A stretch of 64,000 bases of DNA from Bispira polyomma (taxonomy: Eukaryota): assembly GCA_965649765.1 (NCBI GenBank), contig OZ287748.1, positions 34,658,001-34,722,000 of the forward strand, given 5' to 3'. A program made the position numbers and the translations under genes. This document shows positions 6,641-59,839 of the stretch, in pieces (position 1 is the first letter of the stretch; the number at the start of each line of letters is the position of its first letter). The notes under the pieces were generated by a model that had not been told where the DNA came from, searched no databases, and saw only the letters and a program-made list of their open reading frames with translations.

Positions 6641-6855
6641 ATGCCTCCGGTGAGAGAATACTCATGTTCAAAATGTTTTAAAAGACATGCATGGGGTAAA
6701 ACAGGGCTCGGTTACATGCAGGTTCTTCCAGGAAGGGACTTGCAAGTATCCAACAAGCCACAAAACGGGCACACAATTTTATAAGCACACCTGTGAGACT
6801 TGTGAGGCCAGTCATAGAACCAATACGTGTACCAAAAAAGCTACAAAAAAACTAG
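6641..6855 (+). pseudogene. gag remnant: N-terminal zinc finger joined by deletion to the C-terminal CCCH/CCHC fingers
   Basis: MPPVREYSCSKCFKRH followed directly (frameshifted) by CRFFQEGTCKYPTSH...HTCETCEASHRTNTC. Confidence 0.8.
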
Positions 6856-7398
6856 TTAGCCACTGCCCATGCAAACGAAAACATTGATAATGTAGTATTG
6901 ACCAGAATGCTTTATAGTTCAAATTTCAAAGAGTTTAATTTGTTTTGTAAGGAAACGGTACAAAATGTGCCAGTATGTCAAGGGAAAGAGAAATAGTTTT
7001 AGTTACAGTGACGCAGTTAAGGGCGGAACTGGTGTAGCTTGTAAATATGTAAGGCAAGATGAAAATGTGTGTAAACACCATGGGTGGGAAAATACTGCCC
7101 AAAGCAAAGGTAAATATAACTCTCGCGTTCAAAATGTCGTTGACCACAAAATACAGGTGGAAAAACGTTCTAAACTTGAACAAAGTGTCAATAAAAGTCC
7201 AAAGTATCCCAGTACCCAGACTGTCACCCTTCAGAATAGGTTTGCTGTTTTTGAAGAAAGGTGTGAGGGAAACAATGGGGATAGGGCTGAAAGAGGTGAT
7301 AAATTTAATTACACCCCACAGAACCATGGAAGTGGGGGTGAAAGTGTTAAAAAACACCTACTACAAAGGGCTTTCCTAATAACAACATTTTCAATGAC

Positions 7399-10357: not shown

Positions 10358-12764
10358 CCTACCCCTAGTTAATTTGGTGTTTGGTGGTATTTTATTGTCA
10401 GTCTCTACATAGAACTTTAACTGTAAATCTTAAAAAATTGTAGAATAGTAAACACAACATATATACCACACACAATATATGTTGTCATGCAATAATTCAT
10501 TAACAGTAAAGAAAATAACATTTCTCTCGGCATAAGGTCCCCTTCCAGTCAACCAGTACATAATGTACTCATTTGGCTTTTGCTAATCCTCTTTTAACTT
10601 AAAACTTGAGCATTAGGAATTTATCTGCTTAAGGTGACCTCATACCTCGATTTTAGGTGACCTTAATAAACATTAACGTCACACTAAGTTAAAAGTTTAA
10701 GGTAAATCTTAATCTCCTATGGTCACCTCAACTTACCACTTTAAGGTGGTCTTAACTCTCATGCATTGTGAGCTTATGTGACTTTAAGGTCACCTTATGC
10801 CCTGAACCACAACTGTACATAGTAAGACTAGCTGATATTTTTAATAAATATTTTTAACCGCAATCTGTGTTCTGCTTCTCAAACTTATACCAAATTATTT
10901 TTACACCAGTTATAAAAAATTTGGCCGTCCTTCCCGAGGCACTGTAAAGAACTTCTATGGATGCTAATGACTGTTTGCATGATTATAGATGAATTCAATA
11001 TCATATCAGTGAGATTAACCCTGCCAAGGGAGTAAATACAATGACCTGACTGCCAGGGCTGTAAAGATTGTACACTAGGAAACAATGTATATGGATGCAG
11101 ATTACGCAAGCCTAGTGGACAAGCACTGCAACAAAGCCTTCTACAGTTGTTTATGTTTATCTGGCGCAAGTAGTCCATTATCACACTGTCATGATGGATT
11201 GGACATGATAAAAACCCCCTTGATTAGCATCCATCAGTATCAATATTCATGAGCTATAACTCTGGTATCTATAAAAAATTTTATATACATATAAAATAAG
11301 CATAATAATAGAGGTATGTGTGTGCAGTTATATGACTGTGGTATATTCACATCACATTGGTAAAACTTACCAGATGAAGATCCTGAGATTGATGCTGCAC
11401 ACAAAGAGCCAAAACATTGTTTCATTATTTCCAGAAATAATATTTTATAAAACCACATCACAAGGGGATGTTGAGTTCTCTCTTACCATTTTACTATTAT
11501 ACCCAACATAATTGTTAACACAGTACATACACCAGCACGCTAAAGACTCAGATCTTGGAATGTAAAAGCTTTACATACATTGTGATGCTGCAAAGAAAAT
11601 TGACACAAGAGTTGCTTTCATTTTTTCATTCTTTCAATTTTAAGCATGTGTTTGTCAAGGACTAAAGAAGTAATGAAGTGTGTGCCTAATACATGCAACT
11701 CATGACCACTAAACTTAGCTTACTTAAAAGTGAAATCTTTTGTATACATTTTTCAAGAAATAATGTATTATGCATTTTTAAAGTGCTTTATTGATGCGAG
11801 ACATCTCAACAACAGAATCCATTAACCAATTGAGAAGTCTAACAAGAGGAGGTAACTAGAGGGAATAAGTGAGTTTGAAGAAATATGTTTTAGGTATTTA
11901 CCCAGAAAACGCTTTGAGTAATCTGAACATTGTAGTTTACTTGATAAAGAAAGATTCTGTCCAAATGGTCCATTCCAGGTCCCTCTGTAGTATACCAATA
12001 CGGGGAGTAATTTCCCCCCTCTGCTTGATGCAGAGGTAAACTCTATTGCCAAAAGCTTTGCTGGTGTTAGCAGTAATGTCAGAAAATACTAGTATTTCAA
12101 ATAAGCACAAAGTACAAGGAAGTTGCTTTAATGAACATGATCAGAAATAAATGATGGAAGATAATTATTTGTAAAAAATATCTAAGTTGAAATTTTCTCT
12201 GTGTGTAGTGCAATGTTTTAGACCAAAATATGTTCATTAGGATCTTTGTTGATACTGAATTGATTTTTTTGAATTCGATATATTACCAACTAATGTATGT
12301 TAACTTTGAATGTGAATTTAAATAGCTTCTGCAGTGCCCCTAATTAAAATTGGACGTCACTTGACTAAGTAGCAAAACATTTTTACAATCAAACATAAAT
12401 ATATTTAAAAGCAAAGAAAAGTGGCAGTTTTATCCTTGTAATGTATTATGGTTAAATAATGTAGTATACATGAATAAAAAATGTAACAAGACAAAGATGC
12501 AAACATTAGGAGACAGACCTTTATCTTAGTACAGGAGAAAATTGTGGTGGGATGACGCCTATGCGACAGCCTCCTCAGTTTTGGTGGCAGGTCAACAGGG
12601 GACCAATTAGGCCACCTGGGGTCACGGGGGCAAGTATAAAAGAGTTTGCTGCCAACAGGCGCCATCATTATTTTAAAAGGATTTAATACATAAACAGTGT
12701 TTTACAACTGGGGCTTTACTACCCCTAATATTGTTTTTATACCTCGTTTTATATCTATTTAAAT

Positions 12765-13822
12765 ATGCCTAACAAGGAATATCCTTGTAGTGTGTCTTCT
12801 GGCCGACACAAACATCGGGTTGGCAAAAATTGTAAATATAACTTGGTGGATAGCATCGCTGATAAAGTACCTGCTGTCGGTCCTGCTACTCCAGAGGTTT
12901 CTGATTCTGTTTCTGGGTTGATTCTACAACAACTGGTGGCAATGAATGAAAAGATGGATAGCATGGACCAGCGGGTACAGGCTACGGAGGAGGCGCTGTG
13001 TACACCCAGCGCCAGTAAGGCCTGTAATACTTCTTCTAAATCAACTTCTAGTGTAGTTAATACTAGTGAACCAGTAGTTGAGGCCGTTGTGCCATCCCCA
13101 GAGTATTTACGTTCCAATGCAGGGTTACAAAACCAGGTCAATGAGCGTCTGCTACATTTGCAGTACTTAAATGATTTAACGGCAGGTAAATTTAAATCCC
13201 AGAGAGGTGGTGCTGAGACCCCCATAAAAAGAAACGTGGACTGGCCACAGAATTTTTCCTTATCTGGTGTCAAAAAGGTTAGACTTGCCTATGATGACCT
13301 TTCATTGGTTTAATTTATTTCTGGCTTTATCCGGTGCACCCAAGAACAAAAGTTACATACTGTCCGAGAGGCCATGTTAGAAAATCTTGCCATTCTGTAA
13401 TGGACGGCGAGTTCTTGTTTCTTTCAAGAAGGAACATGTAAATTTAAGGCCAGCCATTGAACCTTTGGGCAGTGGTTCAAACACTGCTGTGAGAGTTGTG
13501 ATGGTGCTCACCAGACCAAGCTATGTCCCAAGAAGGGGGCCGCGGTGGCCTTGTGGTTAGCAAGCATTGCGCTTCACAATCACTGGTCTCTCACCTCTAG
13601 GCTGTGTGAGTTCGAATCCTGTCGATGCCTATGTGGGAAAGGTGATAGTTCCATACTGTGAGCCGCTGGTTTAAGTGCAGAACCTTGATCAACTGTATGC
13701 AGTGTTTCCTCCAGCATTTCCAACTACCCATCCCAATATAACCTGAACAGGTACTAGAGTGGACGTTAAATATCCCAATTAAAAAAAAAAAATGTCCTTA
13801 GAAAGTGACTACAAAAAACTGA
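12765..13822 (+). pseudogene. gag ORF1 with premature stop, deletion and SINE insertion
   Basis: 182-aa ORF MPNKEYPCSV..GKFKSQRGG..WPQNF; C-terminal fingers at 13415-13530; gag end ACA AAA AAC TGA at 13811-13822. Confidence 0.88.
13535..13791 (+). mobile_element. tRNA-derived SINE; the central and 3' part resembles MetaSINE/RUDI-type SINEs
   Basis: Pol III A box TGGCCTTGTGG, B box GTTCGAATC and poly(A) tail; imperfect TSD ATGTCCCAAGAA / ATGTCCTTAGAA; second copy at 18053. The family assignment is from memory of the consensus only. Confidence 0.9.
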
Positions 13823-14985
13823 GGGGCCACTGCCACAGTGCAGTGGCTAACACAAAACCTGTAAATAAAATATATTCTAGGGTTGTATATAATTTGGCAT
13901 TCTCTGATTTTAAACTGTTTAACTATGTATGTTTAAATTCTGATGTATGTGCAAAGCAAAGTGTCCAAAGATCTTATCGGGACATGCTAAAACAGGGCAC
14001 TGGTGGTGCTGTTGGAAATTTTAGCAAAAAACCTGAGTCGGGCGAAATTGGGAAATACTTGAAATCAGGGCCCAGCCTGCCAAGGTCCTGTCAAAAACCT
14101 ATTCCCGAGGCAAATGTGGTAAACATGCTATTAATAAGTCATTGTTCCCTACAAAACGTGGGAACAGAAACAAAGTCAAACCTGTTGTCAACAAACCATT
14201 GTTTTGGTTCAGTTCAACTGTTAAAAACCATGTTAAAAACAGTGAATGTGTCAAACCATAACCATGTTTCCACTGTCAACCCAATTAAATTGAGTGGTAT
14301 CGGGTGTAACAATGGACCGGGGGGGGGGGGGGGGCGTCTTCCCCATTTTCAAACCAATTCATTTGGGCAGTGTTAAACATAACAATGAACCCAGTAGTTT
14401 TAGGTGGGCCCTTCACAATATGTTTGCTTGTTTGGACAGGCAGTGTGCAGAAACAATTAATGAGAGTGACACTCAACTTAACAGAGCGAATCAGTACTGT
14501 GACCCGACTTTGCCACAACAAAGGCAACCAACTTCCAAATTATTACAATGTGATGACAAGTATGCTTTGGACCTCGTTAGAGGGCCTGACAAAAGACAGC
14601 GTTTGAATGAGGCTAAGGACTGTGTGCCATACAAGTTGTGGGACATTTAAAAGAGTGGTAAATATGGGTTTATTCCAATTAGCAACTGGGGTGACCCTGT
14701 AGTTGAGTACTCAAGTGACAAGTTACCAATGGACGTGTTTACTTTACACAGGCATCTTAGGTCGGATAGATTTCACAACTATAGGGGCCTACAAATACCT
14801 GTCAATACACAACTCAATGCCCAAGTGTGGGCCAAGTATCTGAAAAACTATTGTGATTGGGAACTCCCCTTATTGGTAAAATTCGGGTTTCCTCTAGATT
14901 GTGACAATTTCCACCAAAGATAATGTTCTCATGCAGGAGCTGGTGTACAGTGACTGAAGATCACTTTTTGCTTAATAACTATATA
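13813..14985 (+). pseudogene. pol N-terminal region, RT core deleted
   Basis: Frame KKLRGHCHSAV..., then CDDKYALDL, YGFIP and GLQIPV..WELPLLVKFGFPLDCD, fused to the RNase H tail. Confidence 0.8.
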
Positions 14986-15031
14986 TATGCATTTCTATGT
15001 CTCCTTTACCTGGTAGTACTTTGTGTTACAG

Positions 15032-15871
15032 ACAAAAATCCATCGCAACAGTTGCTATATAGAAATGCAACCAAGAAGCTCCACCTGGCCTTTTGCAGAT
15101 CCACTGACAGATCATATACAGCTATGTATAAGGTGTACTTGGCTTATGCTATATTCTTGGATCTGCCCATTGATCAGGTGACAGTTATTGATCTTTTTGC
15201 ATTTTTAGAATTGTTGCAACATAACGCAGTAAAAGCTGCCCATATGGCAAATCATTTATCTGCCATTAAGGCTAAGTGCATTGTCCATAATGTACCAATA
15301 TATGCCTTCAGTGACCCACATGTTGCCTATTATCAAACAGCTGTGCAATTAGCTGCCCCATCCATGTAAAACATAAATGTAAAAGAAGATTATAGACATT
15401 CCACTTTTGACCAGTATCGTGAATACTTCACATAAGAATAAAGCTGTCCTCCTTATCAAATGGTCAAAAACGATGCAAAGCAACAACCAGATTAAGTTAA
15501 TTACAATCCCATGTCTACTGGGCTCCCCTCTTTGCCCAGTAAGGTCACTGGAGGACATTTTGGCTATTACCCCTTCTGAACGTAATACCCCTCTGTTTCA
15601 GTTTAAAGACAATGCAAAGTGGGTGCCTCTTACCGACACTCGGGTTCGTCGGCATTTTAAAAATGTACTTGCCAGGCTGCAACTAAAAGATTTACCCTAC
15701 ACACCTTCTGACGTTCAGGTGCAATGTTTGCTTTTCAGCATAATGTTAGTATTCAAAATATTCAAAATCATGGCACCTAGACGTCGGATTGCATGTGGCG
15801 GTACTCGTGGATGCTGGTGATCAGGTGGCTAATACATTCAGACAACATCTCTCTGCTACTTCCCCTTCCTA
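15032..15871 (+). pseudogene. Tyrosine recombinase, deleted and frameshifted
   Basis: Highly similar to 46203-47194 (LHLAFCRSTDRSY, KWSKT, LCPV, DTRVRRHF); the FLRLSNL block is missing. Confidence 0.88.
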
Positions 15872-16169
15872 AACTCCTTGCTGGGTTTGGGTGTATGTAG
15901 TCAACCTTAGTTTATATCTAATTTAAATCATTAAGTAATATCGTTGATTCATTGTACTGAGATGGTAATAATGTACAGTGTACATTACAACTATCACTTT
16001 AACTTAGCATTATTTGCATGTTACAACTATTACTTTAACTGATCTTGTTAACTTTCTCTTAACTTAAAGTAGTTAACTTTGCAGTCGGTAGCAGTATTTA
16101 AGTGCAAATGCCAAACTTTACCTCTCTCAGTTCAAAAAATTAAGGTCACTTTATTCTGGTAAATAGCCT

Positions 16170-18009: not shown

Positions 18010-19443
18010 AAGCAACACCCTAGTGATGGTGGTTTTAGTTCTAGGGGGAACCGGGGGCCGCGGTGGCCTAGTGGTTAGCAAGCATTGCACTTCATAATCA
18101 CTAGTCTCTCACCTCTGGGTGGCGTGAGTTCGAATCCTGTCGATGCCTATGCGGGAAAGGTGGTAGTTCCTTACTGTGGGTCGCTGGTTTCAGTGCAGAA
18201 CCTTGATCAACTGTATGCAGTGTTTCCTCCAGCGTTTTCAACTACCCGTCCCAATATAACCTAAACAGGTACTAGAGTGGACGTTAAATATCCAAATTCA
18301 AAAAAATTCTAGGGGGAACCAGTCTACTCTTCGTCACGGTCATTAGCCAGTACTATAAAAGCAGTTGAAATTTGAACTGCTCTCCCTTTCAAACCTCAGC
18401 ACAGAAGAAACAACTTCATTCACCCTCCCTCCACCCATTCACCTTCCCTGTAGCTAATGCTTGTGGTATAGTTTCAGATGTTACTGAGTCTACCATATTG
18501 GAGCAGCAGTGATCCCTTAAGCAAGTCCTGTGTGTGCCTCTGGCTCCAGGCTCGTTTGTATTATCACTGTGTCTCCACTGCGTCCTGATTGGGTGTAAGA
18601 CGAGAAGTATTGTTTCCATCTAGGCCTTGTGACGAACTTTAAAACAAATGAATCCAGACTTCAGTGCTGTGGTTTTGCCCCGCCTGGGATCTCTGCTGCT
18701 GTACTAATAGATGTTACCGATTGTGTTTTATTTAAAGTTGTTGTTCCTCCATCTATATAATGTAGATAAGGGGTCGTATTGCTCGACCAAGAAAGACTGG
18801 GGAAAATGAGCTAGAGTGGGGAACAAGCAAAAGTGACTTTCAAGATGGCCGTCATATTTATCTATCGGGTTGGTTACCCTCAAACCACGAACTGTTGGTG
18901 TAGTACACGTTTAGAATGTGTTCGAATACCACCTAACCGTTTATAGTGCTAAAGGTCTCCTGCCAGCCAGCTGAATGTGCCACAAAACCGTTCATTGATG
19001 TGTCAACTAATGAACTTTATCTCAAATTGACAATTTAATGTCTTTTTTAACAAAATATGTACCATGCAATACAATTTACATGTCTTGTTTTACTCATTGG
19101 TGGTCTGAGACATCTATGTCTCAGCTGCATCACTAAAATGGTTTTGAACAACATCAAATAGTAAACGTCAAAACTAAATCACCTAGGTTAGGGTAACCTT
19201 AAACTTAGGTTCAAAAACTCTCACCTTAGTTATAGTCACCTTACCATGGTAACCTCAAACGTTTTCCAAATTCCTATCTTAATTTATGGTTACCTTAAAG
19301 TAAATTATATATGGTTACCTTATGCCCCCTTAAACTGAATTGTACATAGTAAATGTTAGCTTTTAAATAAACAATGTACCGCAATTTTCTTACTGTGTTC
19401 ATTCAAACTTAAGATCATGACTTAACTGGCCACCAAGGAACTG
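18010..19443 (+). mobile_element. Short non-autonomous A-spacer-B unit of a Ngaro-like element, with a SINE inserted
   Basis: TACTATAAAAG...AACAACTTCA, then CACCCTCC...AGTTTCAG as at 31118-31234; GGTNACC array 19180-19330; AATAAA..ACCGCAAT..CAAACTT; terminus GGAACTG. The left boundary is uncertain. Confidence 0.7.
18053..18306 (+). mobile_element. tRNA-derived SINE, same family as 13535
   Basis: A box TGGCCTAGTGG, B box GTTCGAATC and A tail; perfect 14-bp TSD TTCTAGGGGGAACC at 18039-18052 and 18307-18320. Confidence 0.95.
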
Positions 19444-27663: not shown

Positions 27664-28635
27664 ATGCCAAGTATTAAAGATTTTAGTTGTTCCAAGTGTG
27701 GGGGAAAACATGAAAGGCCAGTCGGTAGAAAATGTGTTTATTTCGTTGCAATACGTGGCTGTCGCCGGCTCCAGTGAAGCTTCTGTCTCCTCTCCAGGCG
27801 ATCTGATTTCTGGACAAATTCTAACGCAGTTACAATCCATGACGGAAATGATGGAGAGGATGGATCAGCGAGTACAGCTCATGGAGGCGGCGATAGCGGG
27901 AGACCTCACCAAAAATCAGGCGGGTAGTAGCTTTCTTTCTATTAATTCAGTGGTCGAACCAAATGTCGAACCTAGTGCCAGTGATAATGTCATTCCTACT
28001 GTCAAATTTCTAAAGAAAAACTTGGCCATTCAGACTCAAGTAGAGCAGAGATTAGTAGAACTTAAAGCTTTGAACGAAAACCCTACCCAAGGTAAGCTTA
28101 AATCCCAGTGAGGCGGGGGTACTGAAGTTCTGGTCAAGAAATTGGTCGAATGGCCTCAAAATTATGTCCTTACTGGTAGTCTTAAAACTCGTCCAAGTTA
28201 TGACGACCTCACTCTGAGCCAGTGGGTCTGTGGTTTTACTAGGATAGTACAAGATGAGAAATCACCGGAAATCCGCGAAATTATGTTGGAATACATGGCC
28301 AACTTGATGGAGGACTCCCAGGATTTTTCCTGGGAGTCAGCCAAAGCTTGTCACGCCGTAATACTCTCCACTATGGAAATGGACAAGCTCAAGTGGACAG
28401 AAGTTGACAAAATTCATCGTTTAAGAAGGGCGCACGCCCAAAGGCACAGTGTTGGTAGTAGCAGTCAGGGGAGTAGCAAAAATAGTGCTAAGTCATCTGC
28501 AAATTCTTTCAAGAAGACACGTGCAAGCATCAAAACAACCATAAGACTGGCACTACATATTTCTGACATGTGTGTGAAGGGTGCGGGGGTAACCACAAGA
28601 ACTCGACTTGTCATAAGAAGGGTTAAAAAAACTAA
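27664..28635 (+). pseudogene. gag ORF1
   Basis: MPSIKDFSCSKCGGKHERPVGRKC; GKLKSQ*GG; WPQNY..YDDL..FSWESAKACHA; CEGCGGNHKNSTC; ends AAA AAC TAA. Confidence 0.88.
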
Positions 28636-28917
28636 GGGGCCACTGCAGTAATGCAGTGGGCGAAAAAGATAGAAAGTGAGTTCTCAGTCGCACTGTATAT
28701 AATAAGGATTTCGATTCATTTCACTTGTTTGACAAGTCGGTGATTAAAAAGATGTGTACATATAATAGAGGTATAGCAAGTAAACATAGTTACAGCGAAG
28801 TCGTGGTCAAACCGCGTAGTAGCAGTAAATGTGTAGAAAATTGTGTGTCAAAAGGTGTACATAAAAATACCAGTATCAATGTAAATGTATTGAAAGAAAA
28901 ATTAGGGGGCAAAGAAA

Positions 28918-35400: not shown

Positions 35401-35643
35401 ACCAAAATTGTTATGGTGAGTTTGGGGGTAATAAACGCAAAGCTTCAGTCAGAATCGCCTGGTCCAAATTTGGACTCGTCCACTCTTGACCAATAGAGGC
35501 TGACCATCCAGTATATAAGCGGCTGCATCACTCCTCCACTTAATTATATTAAACTTTTATGTTAAATTAATTGAATAAATGCAATATAGGGTTTATTCCA
35601 TTTTAAATACTTTTAGTGACTGGTACTTCCCTGATTTTGTACT

Positions 35644-37033
35644 ATGGCGACTGCTCAACAGGATAATAATCAAAAGACTTCTGTGTTTTGTAAACGAGAG
35701 ACCAGAAAACTCGCATTGTTTAAAAACCCGACTTCCACAAAAGTTGGTAAGGAGTGTGATCGGCGTGAGGTGGGTCATCAAGAGACACCCTCCAAGGAGA
35801 GTGAACCGTCACATCGCCGTACTCACTCCAGCAAAAGCAATGACGCCATATTAAGCTCTGTCCTGGCTTCAGTGCAGAACCAACTGGTGTCATTAGAACA
35901 GATGGTTATAAGGCCTCTCTGCGAAAGTGGACACTCCTCGTTTGCGTGAGCCTGAGATTACCTCGGCCCCGAGAGTTGAGGCAGATGACCAAGAGCCCCT
36001 GTTTAACACGGGTGCAGTACTGACTAGTCCTTCTTCTAGGTATTCCAAGACATTTGAAGACACAGCAGTTCTTCTGCAGGACACGGTGAAAGCGAAGAAA
36101 ACTCCAGTCAAGAACAAGAAGCACAAGTTGACTTGAGAATGAGGATCTCGCCATGGGATGAGATCTCGCCTCTCACATATCAGGGTTGGCCCCAATACAA
36201 CCTCTCATGGGGAGTGGGAACTGGCAGCAACCAAACCGGCGGCCTGTACAGATACAACAGCCACACAACCCAACGTGTACTGCCACAGCTAGTGATGACA
36301 GGAAACGTGCTTTGGAGATGGACCCTGATGGCCCCACCACACTGGACTCCCTGAGATCTAATCCAATGGTGAAGGTCCTGGTGGATGAGTGGATTGCTGC
36401 ACTTGAGGCTTGTGTCAAACTGAAGATTGGGAAAGGTGGGCGGCGTCGCAAAAGCGGCAGATATAACACAACTGAGACTGCCTCCTCCCACATGAGATGA
36501 CCCAATGAGGCCTGGTTAATTGGGCCAAATAGGAAAAGAAGACAGACTTATGACCACTTGACAATGGGTAATTTTGTAATCGGCTTAGTTAAAAACATAT
36601 TAGACACACCTGAGCCCATCACTAGTAGGGCGATGCTGACTGAGATGGGCGAGACAATCAAACTTAGTGAGAATTTTTCCTGGAACATCGAGAGAGGGGC
36701 GTTTGCTGTCAGCATGCACCAATTCGATGATGGCTCTATTAACTGGACGGACACTCGCATCTTGGGGGACAACATGTTAATTTATTCCCAAACTGCAGCA
36801 GATCTGTGACCCTTCCTAAGACTACCCTTGTGGCAACAACTTCCACTACCAGTAAGAAGGTTGCGTGTAAATGGTGGAAAGAGGGCTCATGCTCTCATTC
36901 CAGTGACCACCAAGACAGTTCTGGACAGACTTTGTTTAGGCACATTTGCTACTACTGTTTTAAGGTCTTAAAACGGGCAAATAACCATACCGAGGCAGAA
37001 TGCCAAAACAAGAAGAAATCTACTACTGAATAG
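35644..37033 (+). pseudogene. gag ORF1, family B
   Basis: Fragments ending in CKWWKEGSCSHSSDH...HICYYCFKVLKRANNHTEAEC zinc fingers. Confidence 0.85.
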
Positions 37034-37040
37034 GACTAGC

Positions 37041-39126
37041 ATGACTGTACTGATTCATCACACCATGACTCTAATTTACTTAAGACTAGTGGTGGCGGGT
37101 GTTCTGTTTACACAACAGCCTCATCTCGTAGGGGGGTGGGGGGGGGGAGGCACGAGACTATCAATAGTTGACTCTTACAATTTAATTTCTAGCATGCATG
37201 GCTCTTATAACAACCTTAAAGACTTGAAAGTGAGTGTGTTTGTAGGCACTCCCCTTTTTAGACTTTGCACCCCTGAATGTGTCAGACATAACATGTGTTT
37301 CTGTAATAGTGCGGGTTCTCAACTCGTAGTTAATGATCCTCGAGATCAGATATCACAAGACACTTGTTGGGAGAGCCGGCCTCCCGTACACCAGGGTGTA
37401 GAAAAGAAAGTTAAGTTTAAAAATAAAGTTCCATTCAATAGAAAGTTTGGTTTTGTAGCTAGTGATACTTTGGCTATAAATGCCCCAGAGGGGCCTCAAG
37501 TTGATATTGATAGTTTAGAACATTATTTGTACATGGCAGACCAAATCAAGGACTCGGGTGTCCCCAACTATAAGGGTTGCAGATTTCCCCTTCCTTCAGC
37601 CTTTATTGGCAAGGTTGGAACGAGTATAGAAATGGTTATCATGATCAGAGGTTGTTTGACTATGTCAAATATGTTTTTCCATTGGGTGTAGCCCCCAATC
37701 ACCATATTAGCAGCACTGCCTCCGAGAATCATCACTCTGCGAAGTGTGAAATCAAAGCCATTGAAAAATACATTTCAATTAAATTTATAGAAGGAGCCTT
37801 ATTAGCCCCTTTCAAAATATTTTCCATTCGGATTTTACTTGGGCCCCCCTCAGGACCAGGAATAAAGATGGGGGCTCTTTTGTAGATATCTCATATGGGA
37901 ACACCTCAGTCAACCAAGCCATGTGCTGAGAAACCTATGATGGTAGTCAGTTTACATTAGTTATCCCCCACATTAATGATTTAATTCCTCAACTCACCCA
38001 GTTAGGTGATAAGGCCAGGTTATTTAAGGCTGACATTTCTAGAGCATTCCGTAACATCAGGATGGACCCTGTGGATGCTATTCATCTGGGCATCTCATGG
38101 GATGGCAGGTACTATCTGGATTGAAATTTGCCCTTCGGGGCTGTCCATGGCACTTCTATCTTCCAGCGATGCACAGATTTCATAAGATATATTAGAGTTT
38201 ACATGGTTACACAGTGTACAACTACATAGATGATATTTACGCAGTTTTGCATCAGGATCAGACACAAGCTGCTTTTGAAACTCTACTGGCAGTGATTAAA
38301 TCCTTAGGTTTTCCCCTCAACCCCAAGAAAATTGTTATTCCCACTACATGTATTACCATTATGAGCATACAAATTGATGTGACCAAACGAGAGTTCAGTA
38401 TTTCCCCTGAGAAAATAGAGGACATTATGACCACTTGTAAAACTAGCATTATAGCCCACCAGGTAACTAATTAATCACTACAATCACTATTAGGTAAGCT
38501 TCTGTACATATCCAAATGTGTCCCAGGTTCTCGAGTCATTATTAACAGGCTTCTGGCCTTACTGAGACTTAATAAAGATCAATGGGTTTTCCCTGCCGAT
38601 GAGGCATATCGAGAGGACATTTTATGGTTCATAGTCTTTTTACAGCAGTTTAACGGTATAGCGTATTATAAAAGTGAATCTCGCCCAGACGAGGTGTTTG
38701 TAGATGCAACTTTGACAAGGCTGAGGGGTGTGGAAAGACCACGTGTACTCGGTGGCCATTGCCCCACCCATATTAAACATTCTATCCATCAGCCACTATG
38801 AAATGTATAACGTCTTGGTGGCTCTAAGGTTGTGGGGTCCACAATGGCATAATTCAGATATTCATATTCGTTGTGATAATGAAAGTGCAATCAATGTAAT
38901 TACTACTGGTAAAACCAGAGACTCCTTTTTGGCCCTAGTTCTTTGGAATTTGTAGCTTATATTAGCAAAATACAATATAAAACTCATAGTATCACACATA
39001 CCAGGTAAACTTAATCAGACAGCTGACAAGCTGTCTCGTTCAAGTCAAAGTCAAGTCAGGAATGATTTTACTGACAGTGTCATAGAAAATGTACATCTGA
39101 ACATGATGTTTTTGTTTGATTTGTAA
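37041..39126 (+). pseudogene. pol: RT plus RNase H
   Basis: ENHHSA, KADISRAFRNIRMDP, LPFG, YIDD, VDATL, EMYN, CDNES and NQTADKLSR, with many shifts. Confidence 0.9.
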
Positions 39127-39132
39127 TTGTAG

Positions 39133-40094
39133 GCATGTCACCCCACTTGTTACCTATGTTGGATGCAGCTATGCAGAGATCCCTGCATGCTATACAAACC
39201 AGTACCCAGAGACAGTACAAAAATCAGTTTAGACTGTTTGTGGCATTTAATATTGTTTTTACCAGATTCATGATTGTGGGTCCGAGGCGACCATGTTAAT
39301 GTTTATAGAGTTTCTAGCATCACAAAGTGTAACATATGGGGTGGTCTTTAACTATATCTCTGCAGTGAAATTCTTTTTCATTAAATATTCCTTGCCCCAT
39401 ATGGTGTTTAAGGCACCAATGGTTAAAAAGGGCCTCAAGTCCCTCATGCACACAGGCCCTCGTACCATGAGAACCAAAGGTATTTTTTCCTTCCAGCAGT
39501 TGAATGAAATCTCACGTCTGTGCAACGTGTGTGAGAGTTCACTCACATATCTAACAGCCTTTTTAGTGGCCTTCTACAGCTTTCTCAGAATTTCCAGTAT
39601 TTCACCAAGCTCCAGTACACAGTATGACCCCACCAGGAATATTTGTAGGGAGGATGTCACATTTCAATACCCAGGTGCCCACATAGCATTAAAATGGACC
39701 AAAAATTTGCAGGGCACCAAGCCAACCTCACATTATAAAGTTACCCTGTGTAGAGAACCCCCTGATGTGCCCAGTTCGGGCCCTCAAGTCACTGCTTGAT
39801 AAGTTTAAAGCACCCCAAGATCCTCTATTCTTGATCGATCATTATGAGATATTGACGCAGTCTTTGCTTAGATGCAGTTTAGCCTCATTCTTGAGAATCA
39901 TGGAAGTGCCACTTTTAGGGCACGGTTTCCGTACCTTTCGTTGTTATGCATAGCATGGGAATGTAGATATGGATAGCATTCGTATGCATGGTATATGGAG
40001 GAGTAATGCAGTCTGGTCTTACACCAGCTCCAACACTTCTCAAACCAACACATTCTCTCTCACTTTTCAACATTTGGTAAACTCTTCTACATAG
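39133..40094 (+). pseudogene. Tyrosine recombinase, frameshifted
   Basis: FYSFLRISSI, KWTK, MCPVRAL, (H>R)TFR and HGIWRSNAVWSY. Confidence 0.88.
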
Positions 40095-42873
40095 ATGCTT
40101 TTTTTGGGCTTGGGCTATCAATTCCCCATTTTGTAAACTTATGTTATGACTAACTTTTAGAAATTAATAAAATTGATTCCCAAGTCGTTAACTCCCATCT
40201 TTTCAATTCTCATTTATTTCCTGGACGAGATTCTGACTGAATAATAATATATGTCACTGAGAGACATGGTGGTTGGAAATACGTGCCAAGACCTTCAACT
40301 GTATTTCATATTTGACTAACAGTACATTTATTTTTACATCAGTAAAACCTCCACTTTCCAAGATCTGGAACAGCTGCAAGGATATACAAAACAATCTATG
40401 TACTGTTATTTATGTCAAAGTTATTTTTAGCTATTCAGTCATTGCATTATGTAGTCACTATTGCTTATCATTTATTTTACTTCTTAGATATTTTAAAATA
40501 GTAGCTTTAAAGTTTATGAGGCTTTTCATACAATCGCTTCCATCTTTATTGTTTTTATAAACCTCATACGCTGGTAAACAAGATTCATTCCTGGTTCAGG
40601 TGTTCTTATTTAAGTTAACCTGATATTCTCATGTTATCATAGCTCAATCTATTCCTGTGTTTAAAAGTAATGTTGTCAATCCTATAATGTACTCATGTAC
40701 CATAAAAGTTGATTGCATCATATTAATTATTTCTGGTTTTCAGATTTATGTAAAAAAAAAAACCCATACAAATTCAATAGCTCAACATGTGTTGTACATC
40801 ACACATTGTCAATATTTCTGTACCTTATTGATATATCAATTTTTTACCTGAGTTTGATTTCTATATATCCATTGAATCCATAATTCTGGGTGTCAGTTAC
40901 AATATGTGATTTTGATGATAGAATGATATATTTTGTTTTACAGATTTTTTTTAAAGTTTTTATTGTCATAACATGTCTTTGTAGTCAATGCGATATTAGA
41001 GTCCCAGGTTTTTTTATGATATACCATCGATAGAAACAGAATGCTTCTGTATAGCCTTCCTGAAGGCTTGAGTTTTGTCAAAACCTGTGTTCTGTGTTCA
41101 ACAATTTTAGAAACATGCACATTTAACATGCACATTTAATTTAGCAGAAAGCACTATTAACATCCAAATATTACTCTTGTTGCAGAATACAAGTATCATA
41201 AGGGGAAATTATGCATGCATAGTTGTGGCACTTAGAAAAATTTGTAGAAACAAAGTAAATCCACTAACTCATTAGCTTTACACATCTATTAGCTCAACGT
41301 TATATAGGAATTTAACTATTTATCATTTCAGTTTAAGGTTTACTTAAATGTTTAACTATAACTTCGTCAGCTTCTGTGGATTGGGCTGTATACTGTGTGC
41401 ACATAGGTGAATTTAATTCCAAGCCCATAATCATATAATCTTTATTAGTGAGGAAACCTTGGGATAAAATTTTACATTGTGAAGCTGTATCCCCAATAAC
41501 CAACAACAGATGATCATTGACTCGTGTTGAATATTTTGAAACAAGAAGTAATTAGTTCAGTGTGGAGTTACAGTCTGAATAGGTACTGCTGTAGAGAAAT
41601 AGTAAAAACTTGCAATATGAGTTACAGTATAACTTTCAGTTGCTTTTTTTGTAACATAAAACTCGATGCTTAAGATAATAAAATGATGACCTGAATAGAT
41701 GCCAGAACTTTGTATATTTGAACTGACAAGAGATATTGGAGATGAACACTTGTTTCCAACATAACCTATCTTCAAAGTACACACAATAAGTTACAGTAAT
41801 AGACGTTACTTACAGCTAGTGCTTCCTTTTCTGCACATTTCTGTAGTGTGTGTAAACAAATGTGCTTATTATTGTGGATCTATTTATGAAAATATTTGAA
41901 TTATTTTTAATATTGAGATCAAAATTGTCTTGGGCTGGTCTTCTATTTTTATTTAAGTGTCAGAAAAAAATCAATGACACAAAAAAATAAATATACAAAC
42001 AAATCTGTAGACATTACTGTGTTGACAACAAACCATCATCGATTTTCTCACCCTATTATGTGAAAATATACTTTCGTTGCAGCCAGGAAAGCTCTTTGAA
42101 TAATAATAAAGGGAGGAGTAAATATGGGGTTAATAGGGAGAATTCACCAAGGAGACAGTGATTTGCATTGTGATGGTGGGCTGAGTAGGTTACCCACTGG
42201 GAGATGCTGTATTTTGGGTGCTACAGATAATATGTCAATGCTTGTGGCAGGACAATATATAAAGATATTTCATCTTCAAGAGGTTGTACAGAATTTGTAA
42301 GATTTCTCGGATAAGCAGATATAAGATGTCTGTAAAGTTTTAACAAGAGTATCGAACTAGGTGGGTCAATTGTAAATACTGATAATTACCAGTAGTCATT
42401 AAATAAAGAAAATTACTATTTTATAATTTCATTTAATTATTCCATGTATATTAAATTTTAATGGTTATTAAATGGCTGCTAGGATATTATTTTTCATTTG
42501 GCCTGCAAAATCTAGGATGAACCATTCGGATTGGTTCAAGAGAACCTTTGTATGACATTTTACTTTATTTTATGATATGTTGGTGTTATATAGTTCATTA
42601 TTGCCATGCACCTTTCTGTGAAAGAAATTTTAACTGCTAAAATATTGGTGGGCTGACGCCTATGCGGCAGCCCCCTCAGTTCTGGTGGCAGGTCACTGGG
42701 GGGCCAATTAGGCCACCTGGGGTCATGAGGGCAAGTATAAAAGGGTTTGCCGCCAATAGGCGCCATCATTAATTTAAAAAACTTTGCTGGAACAAGAGTG
42801 TTTTACAACTGGGCCTTTACTACCCCTACTATTGTTTTTAAACCTCATTTTAAATTATACATTATCTGTGATT

Positions 42874-43781
42874 ATGCCTAATAAGGAATATCCGTGTAGT
42901 GTATGTTCTGGCAGACATGAACAGCCGGTTGGGAAAAAATGTCGTTATAGCTTGGTAGACAGCGTCGCTGATGAAGTGGCTACCGTCGGTCCTGCTACTC
43001 CAGAAGTCTCGGATCCTGTTTCCAGCCTTATACTACAACAACTGGTGGCCATGAATGAGAAGATGGATAGCATGGATCGACGAGTACAAGCTACTGAGGC
43101 GGCGCTGTGCACTCCAAGCGCCAGTAAGGCATGTAATCTTTCTTCTAAAACTGATTCTAGTGCAACCAAGGTTACTGAACCCGTGGCTGAGGCCGTTATA
43201 CCCTCTCTAGAATACTTGCGTAATAATGAAGGTTTGCAATCTCAGGTTGATCAGCGGCTACTGCAATTACAGCAGTTAAACGATATTACCGGAGGTAAAT
43301 TTAAGTCTCAAAGGGGTGGTGCTGAGGCCCCATAAAAAGAAATGTGGACTGGCCACAAAATTTTGTCTTATCTGGCGTCAAAAAAGTTAGACCCACGTAT
43401 GATGACCTTTCTCTGGTTCAGTTTATATCTGGTTTTATTCGTTGCATTCAAGAGCAAAAAGTCCATACTGCCCGAGAGGCTATGTTAGACTATCTCGTGA
43501 ATTTAATGGACAACGCCCATGATTTCTCTTGGGACGCCGCTAAAGCTTCACATGCCATATTGCTTACCAATATGAAACTGGATCGTCTCAATTGGACAGA
43601 CACTGACAAGGTCGACCGGATATGCCGTGCTCATGCACAACGTCATATACCCTCGGCATCTAGTGGGTCTAGCTCTTATAAAACCAGTAGTAATGGTAAA
43701 AACAAAAGTCAAGGTAAATCAAATGGTGTCAATTGTCGTTTCTTCCAGGAAGGAACATGTAACTTTAGTGCTAGCCATCGC
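42874..43781 (+). pseudogene. gag ORF1; 1-nt deletion near 43330 and 3' end deleted
   Basis: MPNKEYPCSVCSGRHEQPVGKKC...GKFKSQRGG, then WPQNF...CRFFQEGTCNFSASH. Confidence 0.9.
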
Positions 43782-46163
43782 ATGTTTGTTTTAATTCTCG
43801 TGTGTGTGTAAAGCCAAGTGTACGACGTTCCTATCGGGACGTGTTGATAAAAAAGACAATGGGTGCCCCAAAAACTTTCAGTAGAAAACCCAGTGTGGGC
43901 GAAATTTGGGAAACAAGCCAAACTGAATCCCAACCAGTTAAAGTTGCTCTCAAAACGTTTGCATATGGGGGTAAAAACGTGGGCTGTTAACCCGTTGTTA
44001 ACAATCAAGTGCTTTCCAAAAATAATATGCCAACCAAGAGCTGTGACCATTTCAATTCAGTTAATATGTCAAGCAAAGGTGACGCCTCCATTGTGAATTC
44101 CAAGTTAAATGGTGTCAAACAAAACCACGAGAGAAAAAGGGCCCCCATTGTTGAAACAATTAAGTCCAGCTCGGTGAAAAACAGCAATCAACCCGGCGAG
44201 TTTCAATTAGCCCTTCATAATAGGTTTGATTGTTTGGATATCCCTTGTGTAGAAACAAATGGTGTTGTCGACGACCAAGGGGGGGGGGGGGGGCAAAGCG
44301 GGTGAAAAGACTGCGCCTCTGCCCAAACAAGCTACTACTAAATTGATTCATTGTGATGATAAGTATGCCTTAGACCTCCCTAAAGGCCCTGACAAAAGAA
44401 AACACTTGAATGATGCACAAGACTGCGTGACTTACAAATTGTGGGACATCCAAAATAGTGGTAAATATGGGTTTATTCCGGTGAGTGATTGGGGTGACCC
44501 TGTGAAAGACCATTCTGGTGACAGGCTAACAATGGATGTGTTCACCATGCACAAATATCTTAAATTGGATGGGCGTCCTAACTATAAAGGACTTCAGATA
44601 CCCGTTAGTACACAACTTAATGCCCCTGTGTGGGCCAAGTATCTAGTAGACTACTGGAATTGGGAGCTTCCTTTATTGATAAAATTCGGGTTCCCCCTTG
44701 ATTGTGATAGAAAACATGAGCTTAAGTCAGAACTTAGTAATCACTCTTCTGCCACCCAGTACCCTGATCATGTGACACACTATCTAACGGAAGAATGTCA
44801 GTTCGGTGCTATGTACGGACCATTTACAGTCCCCCCCATTGGGGATATCCACACTTCACCTTTCATGACCTGACATAAATTGAGCTCGGTTAACTGACGG
44901 GTAATCATAGATCTGAGTTGGCCACAAGGCCATTCGGTTAATCCTGCGGTTTGTTCCAACTCGTAGTTAGACAAAGAACTTGTGCTTACCTACCCGTCTA
45001 TTGATACTATCACCAGTCAAGTCTTGGCCATGGGTAGGGGATCACTCATATTTAAGGCCGACATTAGTCGGGCATTCAGGCACGTGACCATCGATCCGAA
45101 AGACATAAATCTATTAGGTTTGTACTGGGATGGGTATTACATTGATGGGTCACTACCTTTTGGCTATCGACACGGCTTGGTTATTTTCCAGCGAATTTCG
45201 GACGGAATAAGGTACACAATGGAGAGTGAAGGTCACCACATTACCAACTACATCGACGATATCTTATGTTGCTCTATTCCTTCGAAAATACACAAAACAT
45301 ATGACCGATTACAAGCACTGTTAGTAGAGCTGGGTTTAACCCTAAGCCAGAAGAAGCTGGTTCCCCCCTCTACCAGAGTAACGTGCCTGGGCATTGTTAT
45401 AGACACCATACAGTTCACCACCTCCACAGGAGAAAATGGCTGCCATTCAGACTATGTGTAGTAAGTGGGTGACCAAAAAATCTTGTACCAAACGGGAACT
45501 TCAGTGCTTACTTGGTTCCTTACTTTATGTTTCTAAGTGTGTCAAATATTCACGTTTTTTCTTGAATCGAATGTTGCAACTCCTTAGAAGCAATCATAAC
45601 AGTAAAACCATGAAAATCACCCCCGAGTTTCGCAGAAATCTGAACTGGTTTGTGGCGTTCCTCAATAAGCATAATGGGGTAACCTTTTTTCACCATGTCC
45701 CCACTACTGCCACCATAGAATTAGATACCTGTCTCACTGGTATGGGTGGAGTATATGGGCAGCAAGTTTATTTTCTCCCCATACCTGCCTCCATGCAGAA
45801 TCAAAACATCGCCTCATTGGAAATGTTAAACATATATGTTGCTTTAAGGTTGTGGGTTGAACAGTGGGAGGGTCAAAAGATACTCATAAAGTGTGATAAC
45901 CAGGCTGTGGTTAGTGTCCTCACCCATGGTAGAACTCGTGACTGTGAGTTGGCTCTCTACTCACGCAATATATTTATGTTGGCCAGTCAGTTTGACGTTA
46001 AGCTAAAAGTCATACATATTCTAGGTGAGAACAACACTGCTGCAGATTTGCTGTCCCGTTGGACTAACTCAGTAAAGGATAATGTTCTCTTGCAGGAGCT
46101 GGTGGGCTTGCCTCAGTGGTGTCCAGTCTCAAAACTACTTATTGCTCAATCATGAAATTTAAT
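43782..46163 (+). pseudogene. pol: RT plus RNase H, with stops and frameshifts
   Basis: KADISRAFRHV, LPFGYRHG, YIDD, LDTCL, LEMLN, CDNQ and NTAADLLSR. Confidence 0.95.
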
Positions 46164-46202
46164 GTATATATGTTGTTCTCCTGCCAGTGTTCTGTTTTAC
46201 AG

Positions 46203-47194
46203 ATAGAGATCTCCTGCAACAGTTATTATACAAAAATGCAACCAAGAAACTGCACCTGGCTTTCTGCAGATCAACTGACAGGTCCTACACAGCCATGCAA
46301 AGGCTGTATTTGGCTTATGCCTCTTTCATGAATCTGCCTTTTGACCAGGTGACAGTTTTTGACTTACTTGCCTTTTTAGAACTGTTGCAACACAATTCTG
46401 TAAAACCAGCCCATATGGCAAACTATCTATCTGCCATTAAGGCTAAATGTATTGTTTATAATGTTCCCTCAAATGCCTTCAGTGACCCACGCATTGCCTA
46501 TTACCAAAAGGCGGTACAGCTAGCTGCCCCCCTTCATGTTAAGCTAAAGAAAATTATTGACATACCCACTTTAACTCATATTGTTAAAATTTCTCTCACT
46601 ACTTATATGGGTGTGATGTTTAAAGCCGTTTACCTTGTCAGCTATTTTTCTTTTTTACGCTTGTCGAATCTAGTCCCCCATTCTGCTTTGCAGTTCTCAC
46701 CTCTTAAGCATCTGGCTAGGGCCGAAGTTATGATTCACAAGGATAAAGCTGTGCTCCTAGTGAAATGGCCAAAGACCATGCAAAGCAACAATCAAATCAA
46801 ATTAATCACTATTCCTAGGCTTTCGGGCTCCCCTCTCTGCCTGGTGAGGTCACTGGAGGACATTTTGCTGCTAACCTCCCCTGAGCCTAACTCCCCGTTG
46901 TTCCAATTCAAGGTTAATGGCAAGTGGTTGCCTCTAACTGATACTCGAGTGCGTCAGCATTTTAAAGATATCCTTGCTAGGTTGCAGCTAAAACATTCTG
47001 GCCTTACCTTTCACGCTTTCCGTCGTTCAGGTGCCACTTTTGCTTTCAATCATAATGTCAGCATTCAAAATATTCAAAATCATGGCACCTGGACGTCGGA
47101 CTGCGTGTGGAGGTACGTCACAGACTCGGTGGATGCTGGCCACCAAGTGGCTGACACCTTCAAACAGCATCTTTCCACTACTTCTTCCTCCTAA
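46203..47194 (+). CDS. Tyrosine recombinase, uninterrupted frame (probably exon 2 of a spliced Gag-YR mRNA)
   Basis: Open frame with FLRLSNL (R), KWPKT (K), HAFRR (HxxR) and HGTWTSDCVWRY (Y); preceded by the acceptor TCTGTTTTACAG. Confidence 0.88.
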
Positions 47195-51122: not shown

Positions 51123-51944
51123 TGAAAAATTCAGTAAATACGGGAACCTACTGATTTGGTCAGTAAATATGCGTAATCTCTAAAAACTTCAGTTAATATG
51201 CGTATTTACTGAACTTTCGTCTCCATTATTTCACAAGTTTACTGGTTGTCATTTCAGTAAACTTATGTAATGTAAAAATTTAATTTGTTTATTTTTATGT
51301 TGAATTTAAAGTGTTTAATTTAGATTTCAGTTAATTTAGATTCAAAAGATAAATATCACTGTTTGGTAATTTTCATATATTGATCTTTTAGGTTAAATTA
51401 ATGACCACTTCTTTATAAAATTCTTTATAATGATGATAATAATGACAAATGTAGTAACTAAAAATACATAATGAACTTACCACTACCAGCCATTTATACA
51501 TGAACATATTTTTTTTGTAATAATATAATTAATTAAATATTTATGATCAGAGTTGAACATACTACATGACATGTAATGTATAAGAACATATTATTAAAAT
51601 TACCAAATCTATTTTAAAAGTTCTTTTCAAGTGTAAATATTATTAAGAATAATTGTAAGATTATTATTTTGTGTAATAAGTAAAGATGGACTCATTAATA
51701 ACTTGTAAAATCACCACCAACATATAATGATACATCATATGGATAAAAAAGACTTAATGTAAATAAGAATAAAGAATAATAATAAGACAATTCAGTAAAT
51801 ACGTGAACTTACTGGAGCTAAACATCAGTAAATATGCTTATTTACTGGAATTTTTAGGGATTACGCGTATTTACTGACCAAATCAGTAAGTTCGCGTATT
51901 TACTGAATATTCATATTTACTGATTTGACATATTTACTGTAACA
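51123..51944. mobile_element. MITE / non-autonomous DNA transposon with about 90-bp terminal inverted repeats
   Basis: 51123-51212 is the inverse of 51825-51913; internal TCAGTAAATA/TATTTACTGA subrepeats; right end TGTAACA; the outer left end appears lost. Confidence 0.85.
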
Positions 51945-58100: not shown

Positions 58101-58924
58101 AATCTCCTCTTGTATTATGTTATTTATTAAATTTACATTTTTTAGTAAACTATTGTTAAATTTCCAAAACCCTTTACCGACTTTAAATTTGTTTAGTTCA
58201 ATCTCTGGACTTATAATAGAATGGTTTGACCGATAACCTGGTTTAATATCACATGTATTTACTATATCAGTCAATGCATTTGACACCAAAAAAAAGTCCA
58301 GTCTGGCCTGCTTCAGCGGATTTTGTTTTTTCCAGGTATACTTATGACTAGTTGGGTGAAGGTATTGATAGATATCCAACAGCTCCAATTCATTTGACAG
58401 GTTCAAGACAGATGATCTTGCCTTGGGGTTGTTCACATGCTTATAATTATATGTGTCTATTATCGGGTCCAGTACTAAGTTAAAATGTCTGCACAAAAAT
58501 TTGGTAATATGATTTATGCTTTTGCAAACAGATTTTAATTTCTGTAAAAAAATCGAGACAATCTATATTTGGGGCATATAGCGATAGTAAATTTATAATA
58601 CCCACACCTGTTTTAACATTCAGAACAATAAAGTTTCCTTCGTTGTCCATAGTGAAAGAAAGTATTTCAAATCCAAAATTATTATTGAACAATATTGCAA
58701 CTCCTCTCGAGTTTGTTTTTGATCCATTAATATAGCAATTGTTGCCCCACATTTATTTCACTTTTTTTATTAGATCTTTTTTGATACAATGTGTATCCTG
58801 GAAAGATACAATACTAGCTTTAGTTTCTTTGAAGGACATCTCTTCGTTTTTGTAAATTTTGTAAGCCTTGACAGTTTGCGAATAGCATCACGATACTATT
58901 TCCGGAAAAGTTTTTCACTATCAT
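55126..58924 (-). pseudogene. LINE ORF2: AP endonuclease, RT and C-terminal Cys/His region
   Basis: NCQGL, QDTH, SRGVAIL, YAPN, RLDFFL, SNH, WKFNNSLL, PGLDG, NWRPISLL, DFEKAFDS, GCRQGDPLSPYLF and FADD. Confidence 0.95.
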
Positions 58925-59321
58925 AGGAAGTACTCTCTACACTTACAAGTATAAACTTCATTATACAAAGTTTCATTGAACAGTATAGTAATAATGAATA
59001 TGATTGATGGACAATATTGTCTACCGTTTCCTTCAATTCGTCTATCATTCTATATAAATAATTTATTTTAACTAATCTGATTTCACAGAAATAAAAATGA
59101 TAAACAACAACACTAACAACATAACTTATGTACACACAAATATAAAGTAAAAATACTAGTACAAGTCCTTCCTCAGGTAAGACGCCCATTATTAGTTTTT
59201 TACTGAATCACTTTTCTATACAAGATACTGTTTTAATCTACAAAGTAACCCTCTTTTTCTTGTACTTAACAACATACACTATCGAATATACAGATATTCT
59301 ATATTGTGAGAGACTTTAAAA

Positions 59322-59738: not shown

Positions 59739-59839
59739 ATAGATCCACATTATTATTATTTGCTATTTGTTACAATTGTTTTATCAAATTTTGATTAATT
59801 AAAGATGTTCTATCTAAATCTATAAGGTTTTGACAACTA

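What the first reader, a model, noticed from the sequence alone, without database searches (positions are those of the whole stretch)
13811..13848. Conserved -1 ribosomal frameshift cassette at the gag/pol junction
Seen: gag ends A AAA AAC + stop. At 13813-13819 it is followed after 6 nt by the stem GCCACTGC-CACAGT-GCAGTGGC. At 28626-28632 it is followed after 7 nt by CCACTGCA-GTAA-TGCAGTGG (a GNRA loop). At 6845-6852 there is one extra A and only the 5' arm GCCACTGC survives. The -1 frame reads a conserved KLRGHCxxAV and stays open for about 190 codons at 13.8 kb. Established: X XXY YYZ plus a 5-9 nt spacer and an RNA structure is the canonical -1 frameshift signal. Inference: Gag-Pol is made by frameshifting and Gag-YR by splicing, giving three proteins from one start codon.
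Basis: partly seen in the sequence, partly recalled or inferred. Interest (0 to 1): 0.7.

Follow-up and report, generated by a model that had tools for sequence, protein, structure and literature searches.

The report
Ribosomal frameshift signal in Ngaro retrotransposons
A very abundant jumping gene in this animal-sized genome keeps a short slippery sequence and an RNA hairpin at the end of its coat-protein gene, which likely makes some ribosomes slip back one letter to produce the copying enzyme, as retroviruses do, while its sister lineages keep a single stop codon there that ribosomes likely read through.

Summary
Real, and a textbook-type signal in a class where I found it unreported. The three sites lie in decayed copies of Ngaro-type (DIRS order) tyrosine-recombinase retrotransposons; none of the three window copies can use the signal as it stands. 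Genome-wide the cassette is strongly conserved: 1,107 exact matches, control 0. Among copies picked by Gag protein, not by the motif, 89 of 103 carry A AAA AAC in the gag frame, and pol lies in the -1 frame with no conserved AUG. Of 41 conserved Gag columns only the Lys and Asn of the heptamer use a single codon. The hairpin keeps a 6-8 nt spacer while the gag stop moves, and it covaries between clades. -1 frameshifting is therefore likely (0.88) but unmeasured. Gag-YR splicing is supported by signals only; the scan noted that splice before in this genome, and readthrough in diatom elements.

The parts
13813..13819 (+). Slippery heptamer A AAA AAC at the gag 3' end (Lys-Asn, then TGA)
   Evidence: sequence; conserved in 89 of 103 Gag-selected copies
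13820..13825 (+). 6-nt spacer containing the gag stop
   Evidence: core stem starts 8 nt after the heptamer in 58 of 60 short-loop copies
13826..13847 (+). Hairpin, 8-9 bp with a 6-nt loop (likely frameshift stimulator)
13813..14376 (+). -1 frame, 187 codons, N-terminal part of pol; does not reach RT in this copy
12765..13534 (+). gag of this copy (ATG 12765), broken by stops and an internal deletion
13535..13788 (+). SINE-like insert with A-tail and degenerate target duplication, just upstream of the slip site
   Evidence: no tRNA or Rfam match
13186..15031 (+). Predicted phase-1 intron (donor in gag, acceptor before YR); RT core deleted inside it in this copy
   Evidence: inferred, no RNA
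15032..15869 (+). Tyrosine recombinase remnant
   Evidence: tblastn to the 46163-47194 ORF
12540..16040 (+). Whole decayed Ngaro-type copy holding the finding
28626..28659 (+). Second cassette (heptamer, 7 nt, 8-bp stem); gag stops one codon before it in this copy
6845..6866 (+). Third, decayed cassette: one extra A, 3' arm lost
43781..43782 (+). Deletion point in the 42.6-47.9 kb copy: about 190 bp including the junction are missing
37031..37033 (+). gag TAG of the 35.4-40.2 kb copy, member of the in-frame (likely readthrough) clade

Best explanation
This is the gag/pol junction of a Ngaro-type tyrosine-recombinase retrotransposon, where a conserved A AAA AAC heptamer and a hairpin 6-8 nt downstream likely make a minority of ribosomes shift -1 and so would produce a Gag-Pol fusion. 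Shown: the heptamer sits in the gag frame at the gag end, pol overlaps in -1 without a conserved AUG, and heptamer and stem are conserved at the nucleotide level with compensatory pairs. Inferred: ribosomes pause at the hairpin with tRNA-Lys on AAA and tRNA-Asn on AAC, both slip back one base and continue as ...K-N-L-R-G-H-C; the rest stop at the adjacent gag stop, giving Gag in excess (efficiency not measured; a few to about ten percent is my guess from recalled stem-loop cases). The three window copies are dead relics of this design.
For: Gag-protein-selected loci: 120 fetched, terminal zinc finger located in 103, exact heptamer in the gag frame in 89, one mismatch in 12, two in 2; the -1 frame has fewest stops in 80 of 101 (158 stops against 525 and 1,331 in the other frames). 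Seven of 26 hand-picked full-length copies, from all three subclades, have gag of 338-372 codons and a -1 frame of 809-851 codons through RT; first pol Met at codon 2-436. Among 22 subfamily representatives, 41 Gag columns are conserved in amino acid; only Lys (AAA 22/22) and Asn (AAC 22/22) use one codon, and the preceding codon varies (Ser, Ala, Thr, Val, Pro) but ends in A in all 21 aligned. Stem: 17 rows, 90.6% of cells paired, 3 pairs changed on both sides, covariation 0.196, 0 of 500 shuffles as high, slid controls 18-49%. Genome-wide, the pair next to the core is C-G or G-C: no C-C among 16 and no G-G among 23 non-matching cases against 1,107 S...S matches (63 C-G and 37 G-C among the 100 listed, counted by eye). 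A third clade has a longer-looped stem with further compensatory and G-U changes. The stem keeps its distance from the heptamer while the gag stop moves from +0 to +1 to +7 codons. 56 of 61 Gag homologues from other, unnamed assemblies that end in the finger have KN after it. A_AAA_AAC is among the most shift-prone heptamers (PMC5009743, passage) and is used by MMTV, HTLV, BLV, EIAV and astroviruses (PMC3835772, table passage).
Against: No frameshift, ribosome or RNA data. The hairpin is short (8-10 bp), weaker than a pseudoknot; six of ten pairs never vary and so say nothing; the main compensatory change may be a single event between two clades; rows are related. The 22 representatives were chosen among copies with the exact heptamer, and the two queries for the second and third clades were chosen because they end in KNE. 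17 of 120 loci were dropped because the finger was not found. A few copies have gag and pol fused (3 seen; the one I resolved has an extra base upstream of an intact cassette). 12 of 30 relatives of the 28.6-kb copy have a TAA just before the heptamer, partly as one clade, so copies that cannot reach the site have still spread.
Confidence: 0.88

Rival explanations
1. Pol is made from a spliced mRNA that joins the gag donor to an acceptor near the junction, as the scan has proposed for related elements in another genome.
Against: No acceptor at a conserved place and phase opens into pol in 22 representatives; best candidates scatter in position and phase and mostly score 3-7 against 7.5-12 for the YR acceptors. 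It would not explain the heptamer or the hairpin.
Confidence: 0.05
2. Ribosomes stop at the gag stop and restart, or scan to an internal pol AUG; the hairpin is a packaging or priming element and the A-run only codes Lys-Asn.
For: The hairpin lies right behind the stop in one clade; structured cis-elements are common in retroelements (recalled).
Against: A pol-frame AUG from the overlap to codon 30 exists in only 4 of 22 representatives; protein-like motifs (SRxVYN, SYxDV) are kept upstream of the first Met; the hairpin tracks the heptamer, not the stop; synonymous sites of the heptamer are frozen.
Confidence: 0.04
3. RNA polymerase or RT slips on the A-run and adds an A, fusing the frames at the RNA level.
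For: The run is an indel hotspot in genomic copies (6.8-kb copy; several).
Against: The run is only six A, shorter than usual slippage tracts (recalled); a fixed phase, the terminal C and a downstream hairpin at fixed distance are not needed for it.
Confidence: 0.03

Closest known systems
-1 frameshift signals A AAA AAC plus 3' structure of deltaretrovirus gag-pro (HTLV, BLV), MMTV, EIAV and astroviruses
   Same: Same heptamer, 6-9 nt spacer, downstream structure (PMC3835772, passages and table); deltaretrovirus stimulators are generally taken as simple stem-loops.
   Different: Host element is a YR retrotransposon with no protease or DDE integrase; stem only 8-10 bp; no conserved pseudoknot found; untested.
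Ngaro retrotransposons (order DIRS)
   Same: gag, RT/RNase H, YR in that order, split direct repeats A1-ORFs-B1-A2-B2, no methyltransferase (definitions in PMC8547959, PMC4157794, PMC3266345, passages).
   Different: A ~480-750 bp spacer lies between A2 and B2; no hydrolase ORF seen; the papers I could read give no gag-pol expression mechanism. The 2015 review, as quoted in PMC13003380, proposes frameshifting at the RT/RH-YR overlap, where these families instead show a variable frame and splice signals.
LTR retrotransposon gag-pol recoding (Ty3/gypsy -1 sites; Tca2 stop bypass)
   Same: 28 of 51 animal elements have pol in -1, many with heptamers (PMC5009743, passage); Tca2 has a stop between gag and pol (PMC2194720, abstract start only).
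   Different: Different order of elements; here both modes occur as sister clades in one genome.
Gammaretrovirus UAG readthrough (MuLV)
   Same: For the sister clades: gag and pol in frame, one UAG, usually followed by G (PMC4178896, abstract start only).
   Different: No conserved pseudoknot: only a weak 5-bp hairpin in one subclade and no consensus fold in the other.

Membership tests
-1 programmed ribosomal frameshift signal | X XXY YYZ heptamer in the upstream frame | tested here: met
   89 of 103 exact
-1 programmed ribosomal frameshift signal | Downstream ORF in -1 that overlaps at the heptamer and lacks its own start | tested here: met
-1 programmed ribosomal frameshift signal | 3' RNA structure 5-9 nt downstream, conserved | tested here: met
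-1 programmed ribosomal frameshift signal | Pseudoknot (common, not required) | tested here: not met
   short variable loops; loop-to-downstream pairing above shuffles in 2 of 7 long-loop representatives, not conserved
-1 programmed ribosomal frameshift signal | Measured frameshifting or transframe protein | not testable with these tools
   needs reporter, profiling or mass spectrometry
Ngaro retrotransposon | gag-like ORF, RT/RNase H ORF, YR ORF downstream on the same strand | tested here: met
   Pfam RVT_1, RVT_3/RT_RNaseH, weak Phage_integrase
Ngaro retrotransposon | Split direct repeats A1-ORFs-B1-A2-B2 | tested here: met
   3 of 20 full-length loci; 6 further copies; many copies end at B1
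Ngaro retrotransposon | No methyltransferase domain | tested here: met
   none in two whole pol ORFs; pol ends shortly after RNase H
Ngaro retrotransposon | RT groups with reference Ngaro elements | not tested
   no named reference sequences were at hand; PMC4157794 warns that structural features are homoplastic
DIRS1-like or PAT-like retrotransposon | Methyltransferase domain; inverted repeats with ICR for DIRS1 | tested here: not met
Programmed UAG readthrough (sister clades) | Single conserved in-frame stop between gag and pol | tested here: met
   47 of 48 TAG; frame 0 fewest stops in 38 of 48; one copy 524 + 802 codons
Programmed UAG readthrough (sister clades) | Conserved 3' stimulatory structure | tested here: inconclusive

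The most novel reading that the evidence does not exclude
Ngaro-type retrotransposons run the full retroviral expression plan from one start codon, Gag, a recoded Gag-Pol and a spliced Gag-recombinase, and within one genome the superfamily has switched between -1 frameshifting and UAG readthrough at the same junction while keeping the pol N-terminal R-G-H-C / D-C motif, a natural experiment in swapping recoding modes.
Probability: 0.6. Interest if true: 0.62.

Novelty: new member of a known kind. Interest (0 to 1): 0.47.

Why it matters
How DIRS-order retrotransposons express their AUG-less second and third ORFs is open in the papers I could read. This gives a sharply testable 35-nt answer for pol, backed by more than a thousand genomic copies, and shows that the frame offset in such elements is programmed rather than decay, which matters for annotating them. 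The sister-clade switch to readthrough parallels the split among retroviruses. The mechanism itself is textbook.

Tried and rejected
No RNA holder listed for the element, so expression and splicing were not testable. A degenerate probe for already-spliced copies of two subfamilies found 0 matches; this covers only those subfamilies. Two metagenome scans for relatives found none, so no DNA junction from another species was seen; the outside evidence is protein ends only. Rooting the RT tree failed: no Dam-bearing element in the genome and no usable gypsy RT in fetched loci; the direction of the switch is unknown. The careful tree did not finish; the quick tree is used. Pseudoknot: not supported. 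GNRA loop as a conserved feature: rejected. Frameshifting into YR: rejected for these families because the YR frame relative to pol is -1 in 27, +1 in 10 and 0 in 8 of 45 copies. The sister clades' TAG-G as a splice acceptor: considered; acceptor-like score median 4, maximum 7, below the YR acceptors, and out of phase with the known donor; not excluded. My first frame labelling was off by one and was redone. The two primary descriptions (Goodwin and Poulter 2004; Poulter and Butler 2015) are not held and may already mention a gag-pol slip site. No supplements were read.

Full report
1. Observation. At 13813 the order is heptamer, 6 nt, 8-bp stem; it folds at -16.7 kcal/mol, z -2.35; the 28626 site at -16.8, z -5.97; the 6845 site has lost its 3' arm. 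All three copies are broken. At 13.8 kb a ~255-bp insert, 92% identical to 18053-18306, sits just upstream, the gag frame is open only four codons before the site, and parts of gag and the RT core are deleted. At 28.6 kb an in-frame TAA overlaps the heptamer's first A and the -1 frame closes after 17 codons. At 6.8 kb the extra A fuses the frames. The window alone is thus weak evidence; the family had to be examined.

2. What the element is. The window holds about seven pieces of YR retrotransposons. It lies in a 1.035-Gb assembly of 75 contigs; that it is an animal is inferred. Well-preserved copies elsewhere have gag (about 330-380 codons, ending in a zinc finger), pol with RT and RNase H and no methyltransferase match, then YR. 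Split direct repeats A1-ORFs-B1-A2-spacer-B2 appear in 3 of 20 full-length loci and 6 more copies; 22 copies match one 5.5-kb element end to end at 95-100% (query included), so the family is young. These features fit Ngaro as defined in PMC8547959 (section 11 and passages), PMC4157794 and PMC3266345 (passages); placement by RT tree against named references was not tested.

3. Conservation. A first pattern gave 565 matches, control 0, but it presupposes the motif. I therefore sampled by Gag protein with four queries (two chosen because they end in KNE; top 30 loci each). Of 120 loci, 103 had a locatable terminal finger; 89 carry the exact heptamer in the gag frame, 12 one mismatch, 2 two. In the next 100 codons the -1 frame had fewest stops in 80 of 101, tied in 7, and lost in 14. 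In 40 copies with at least 300 open codons the first pol Met lies anywhere from codon 2 to 436. Seven of 26 hand-picked full-length copies run 809-851 codons from the heptamer through YxDD behind an open gag. In 22 subfamily representatives (chosen among exact-heptamer copies), 39 of 41 conserved Gag columns use several codons; only the Lys and Asn of the heptamer use one, and the codon before them changes amino acid but always ends in A. Outside this genome, 56 of 61 unnamed ENA Gag homologues ending in the finger have KN after it; 59 of 120 were truncated or read off-frame and were not counted.

4. The hairpin. Three clades use it. In the first the stop follows the heptamer at once; in the second one codon later; in the third one to seven codons later, with a longer loop. 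The stem stays 6-8 nt from the heptamer: 77 of 89 exact-heptamer loci keep the core, 58 at offset 8, 17 long-loop at offset 9, 2 elsewhere. On 15 representatives plus two window sites, 90.6% of cells pair, three pairs change on both sides, and no shuffle of 500 reaches the covariation score; six pairs are invariant and uninformative. Genome-wide, 1,107 sites match with C or G at the covarying pair, and at the 7-nt spacing C-C and G-G are absent among the 16 and 23 non-matching cases; 19 of the 23 are G-U. This may trace to one compensatory event between clades. The long-loop clade adds G-U and one C-G/U-A change. No conserved pseudoknot.

5. Mechanism. By established knowledge (PMC5009743 and PMC3835772, passages), A AAA AAC with a structure 6-9 nt downstream is a strong eukaryotic -1 signal. 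Inferred: tandem slippage of tRNA-Lys and tRNA-Asn yields Gag-Pol at a minority rate. Rivals (splice into pol, restart at an AUG, polymerase slippage) fit poorly.

6. Sister clades. Using the gag of the 35-40 kb window copy as query (30 top loci plus 40 hand-picked lower hits), 56 of 70 had a finger and 48 a stop within 16 codons: 47 TAG, next base G in 42; frame 0 has fewest stops in 38 of 48. One copy has 524 codons, TAG, 802 codons, then YR; five have a sense codon in its place and read on. None has the heptamer. On a quick RT/RNase H tree of 44 rows (5 of 49 left out as too short) the 28 frameshift and 16 TAG rows fall on two sides of one branch, SH-aLRT 100; it is unrooted. Readthrough is the likely reading; a conserved stimulator is not evident and a splice acceptor is not excluded.

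7. Gag-YR splice. The best acceptor after the pol stop is in phase with a phase-1 donor in 39 of 45 copies (all AG: 141 of 410; 4 of 49 skipped); an AG-GT donor in phase 1 sits at a conserved Gly of gag in 32 of 39 (10 without the motif); the YR frame relative to pol varies. This supports splicing over the YR frameshift proposed in the 2015 review as quoted in PMC13003380 (passage). I saw no RNA and no spliced copy. Five earlier notes on this genome make the same claim; they are not independent support.

8. Novelty. Nine full-text searches and term look-ups in PMC8547959, PMC13003380, PMC3783388, PMC6681497, PMC9210276, PMC3266345, PMC4157794, PMC7192593, PMC5009743 (first 300,000 characters) and bioRxiv 10.1101/2022.06.16.496473 (passages only) showed no slip site or gag-pol recoding for DIRS-order elements. 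The two primary papers are not held. Earlier scan notes cover the splice and diatom readthrough; look-ups for the frameshift returned nothing. Verdict: a new member of a known kind of signal, interest 0.47.

Noticed in passing
window 35417-40240; L081-L150, L256-L275: Sister clades with gag and pol in frame behind one TAG, usually TAG-G; likely readthrough. Pol begins with R-G-H-C or D-C like the frameshift clades; a GG(A/G)CTG motif recurs in different frames.
   Followed up: partly
window 28624-28626; L211-L237, L003, L013: A TAA just before the heptamer occurs in 12 of 30 relatives, scattered and as one subclade: a recurrent change beside the A-run, and copies that cannot reach the slip site still spread, probably in trans.
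   Followed up: partly
window 13535-13788 and 18053-18306: SINE-like repeat with A-tail; perfect 14-nt target duplication at 18 kb; both copies inserted at G-run sites resembling its own 5' end; no tRNA or Rfam match.
   Followed up: partly
L064, L065, L076: Most young copies end exactly at B1 with no A2-B2; only a minority carry the full split repeats, which include a ~480-750 bp spacer.
   Followed up: no
L061, L062, L063 and further hits: Copies with gag and pol fused in one frame of 900-1,240 codons; the one resolved has an extra base upstream of an intact cassette.
   Followed up: partly
L170-L177: This subfamily has two A AAA AAC heptamers in the gag frame 12 nt apart; the hairpin is spaced to the second.
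   Followed up: no
window 6.6-47.9 kb; L015, L016: Seven YR-element pieces of several families cluster within 48 kb, with more just upstream of the window; possible insertion hotspot or repeat cluster.
   Followed up: no
window 55388-58562 (-): Decayed LINE-like element (RVT_1, zf-RVT).
   Followed up: no
window 51126-51911 and 59317-59739: A 786-bp MITE-like unit with 119-nt inverted arms and 29-nt subrepeats; a 104-bp tandem repeat.
   Followed up: no
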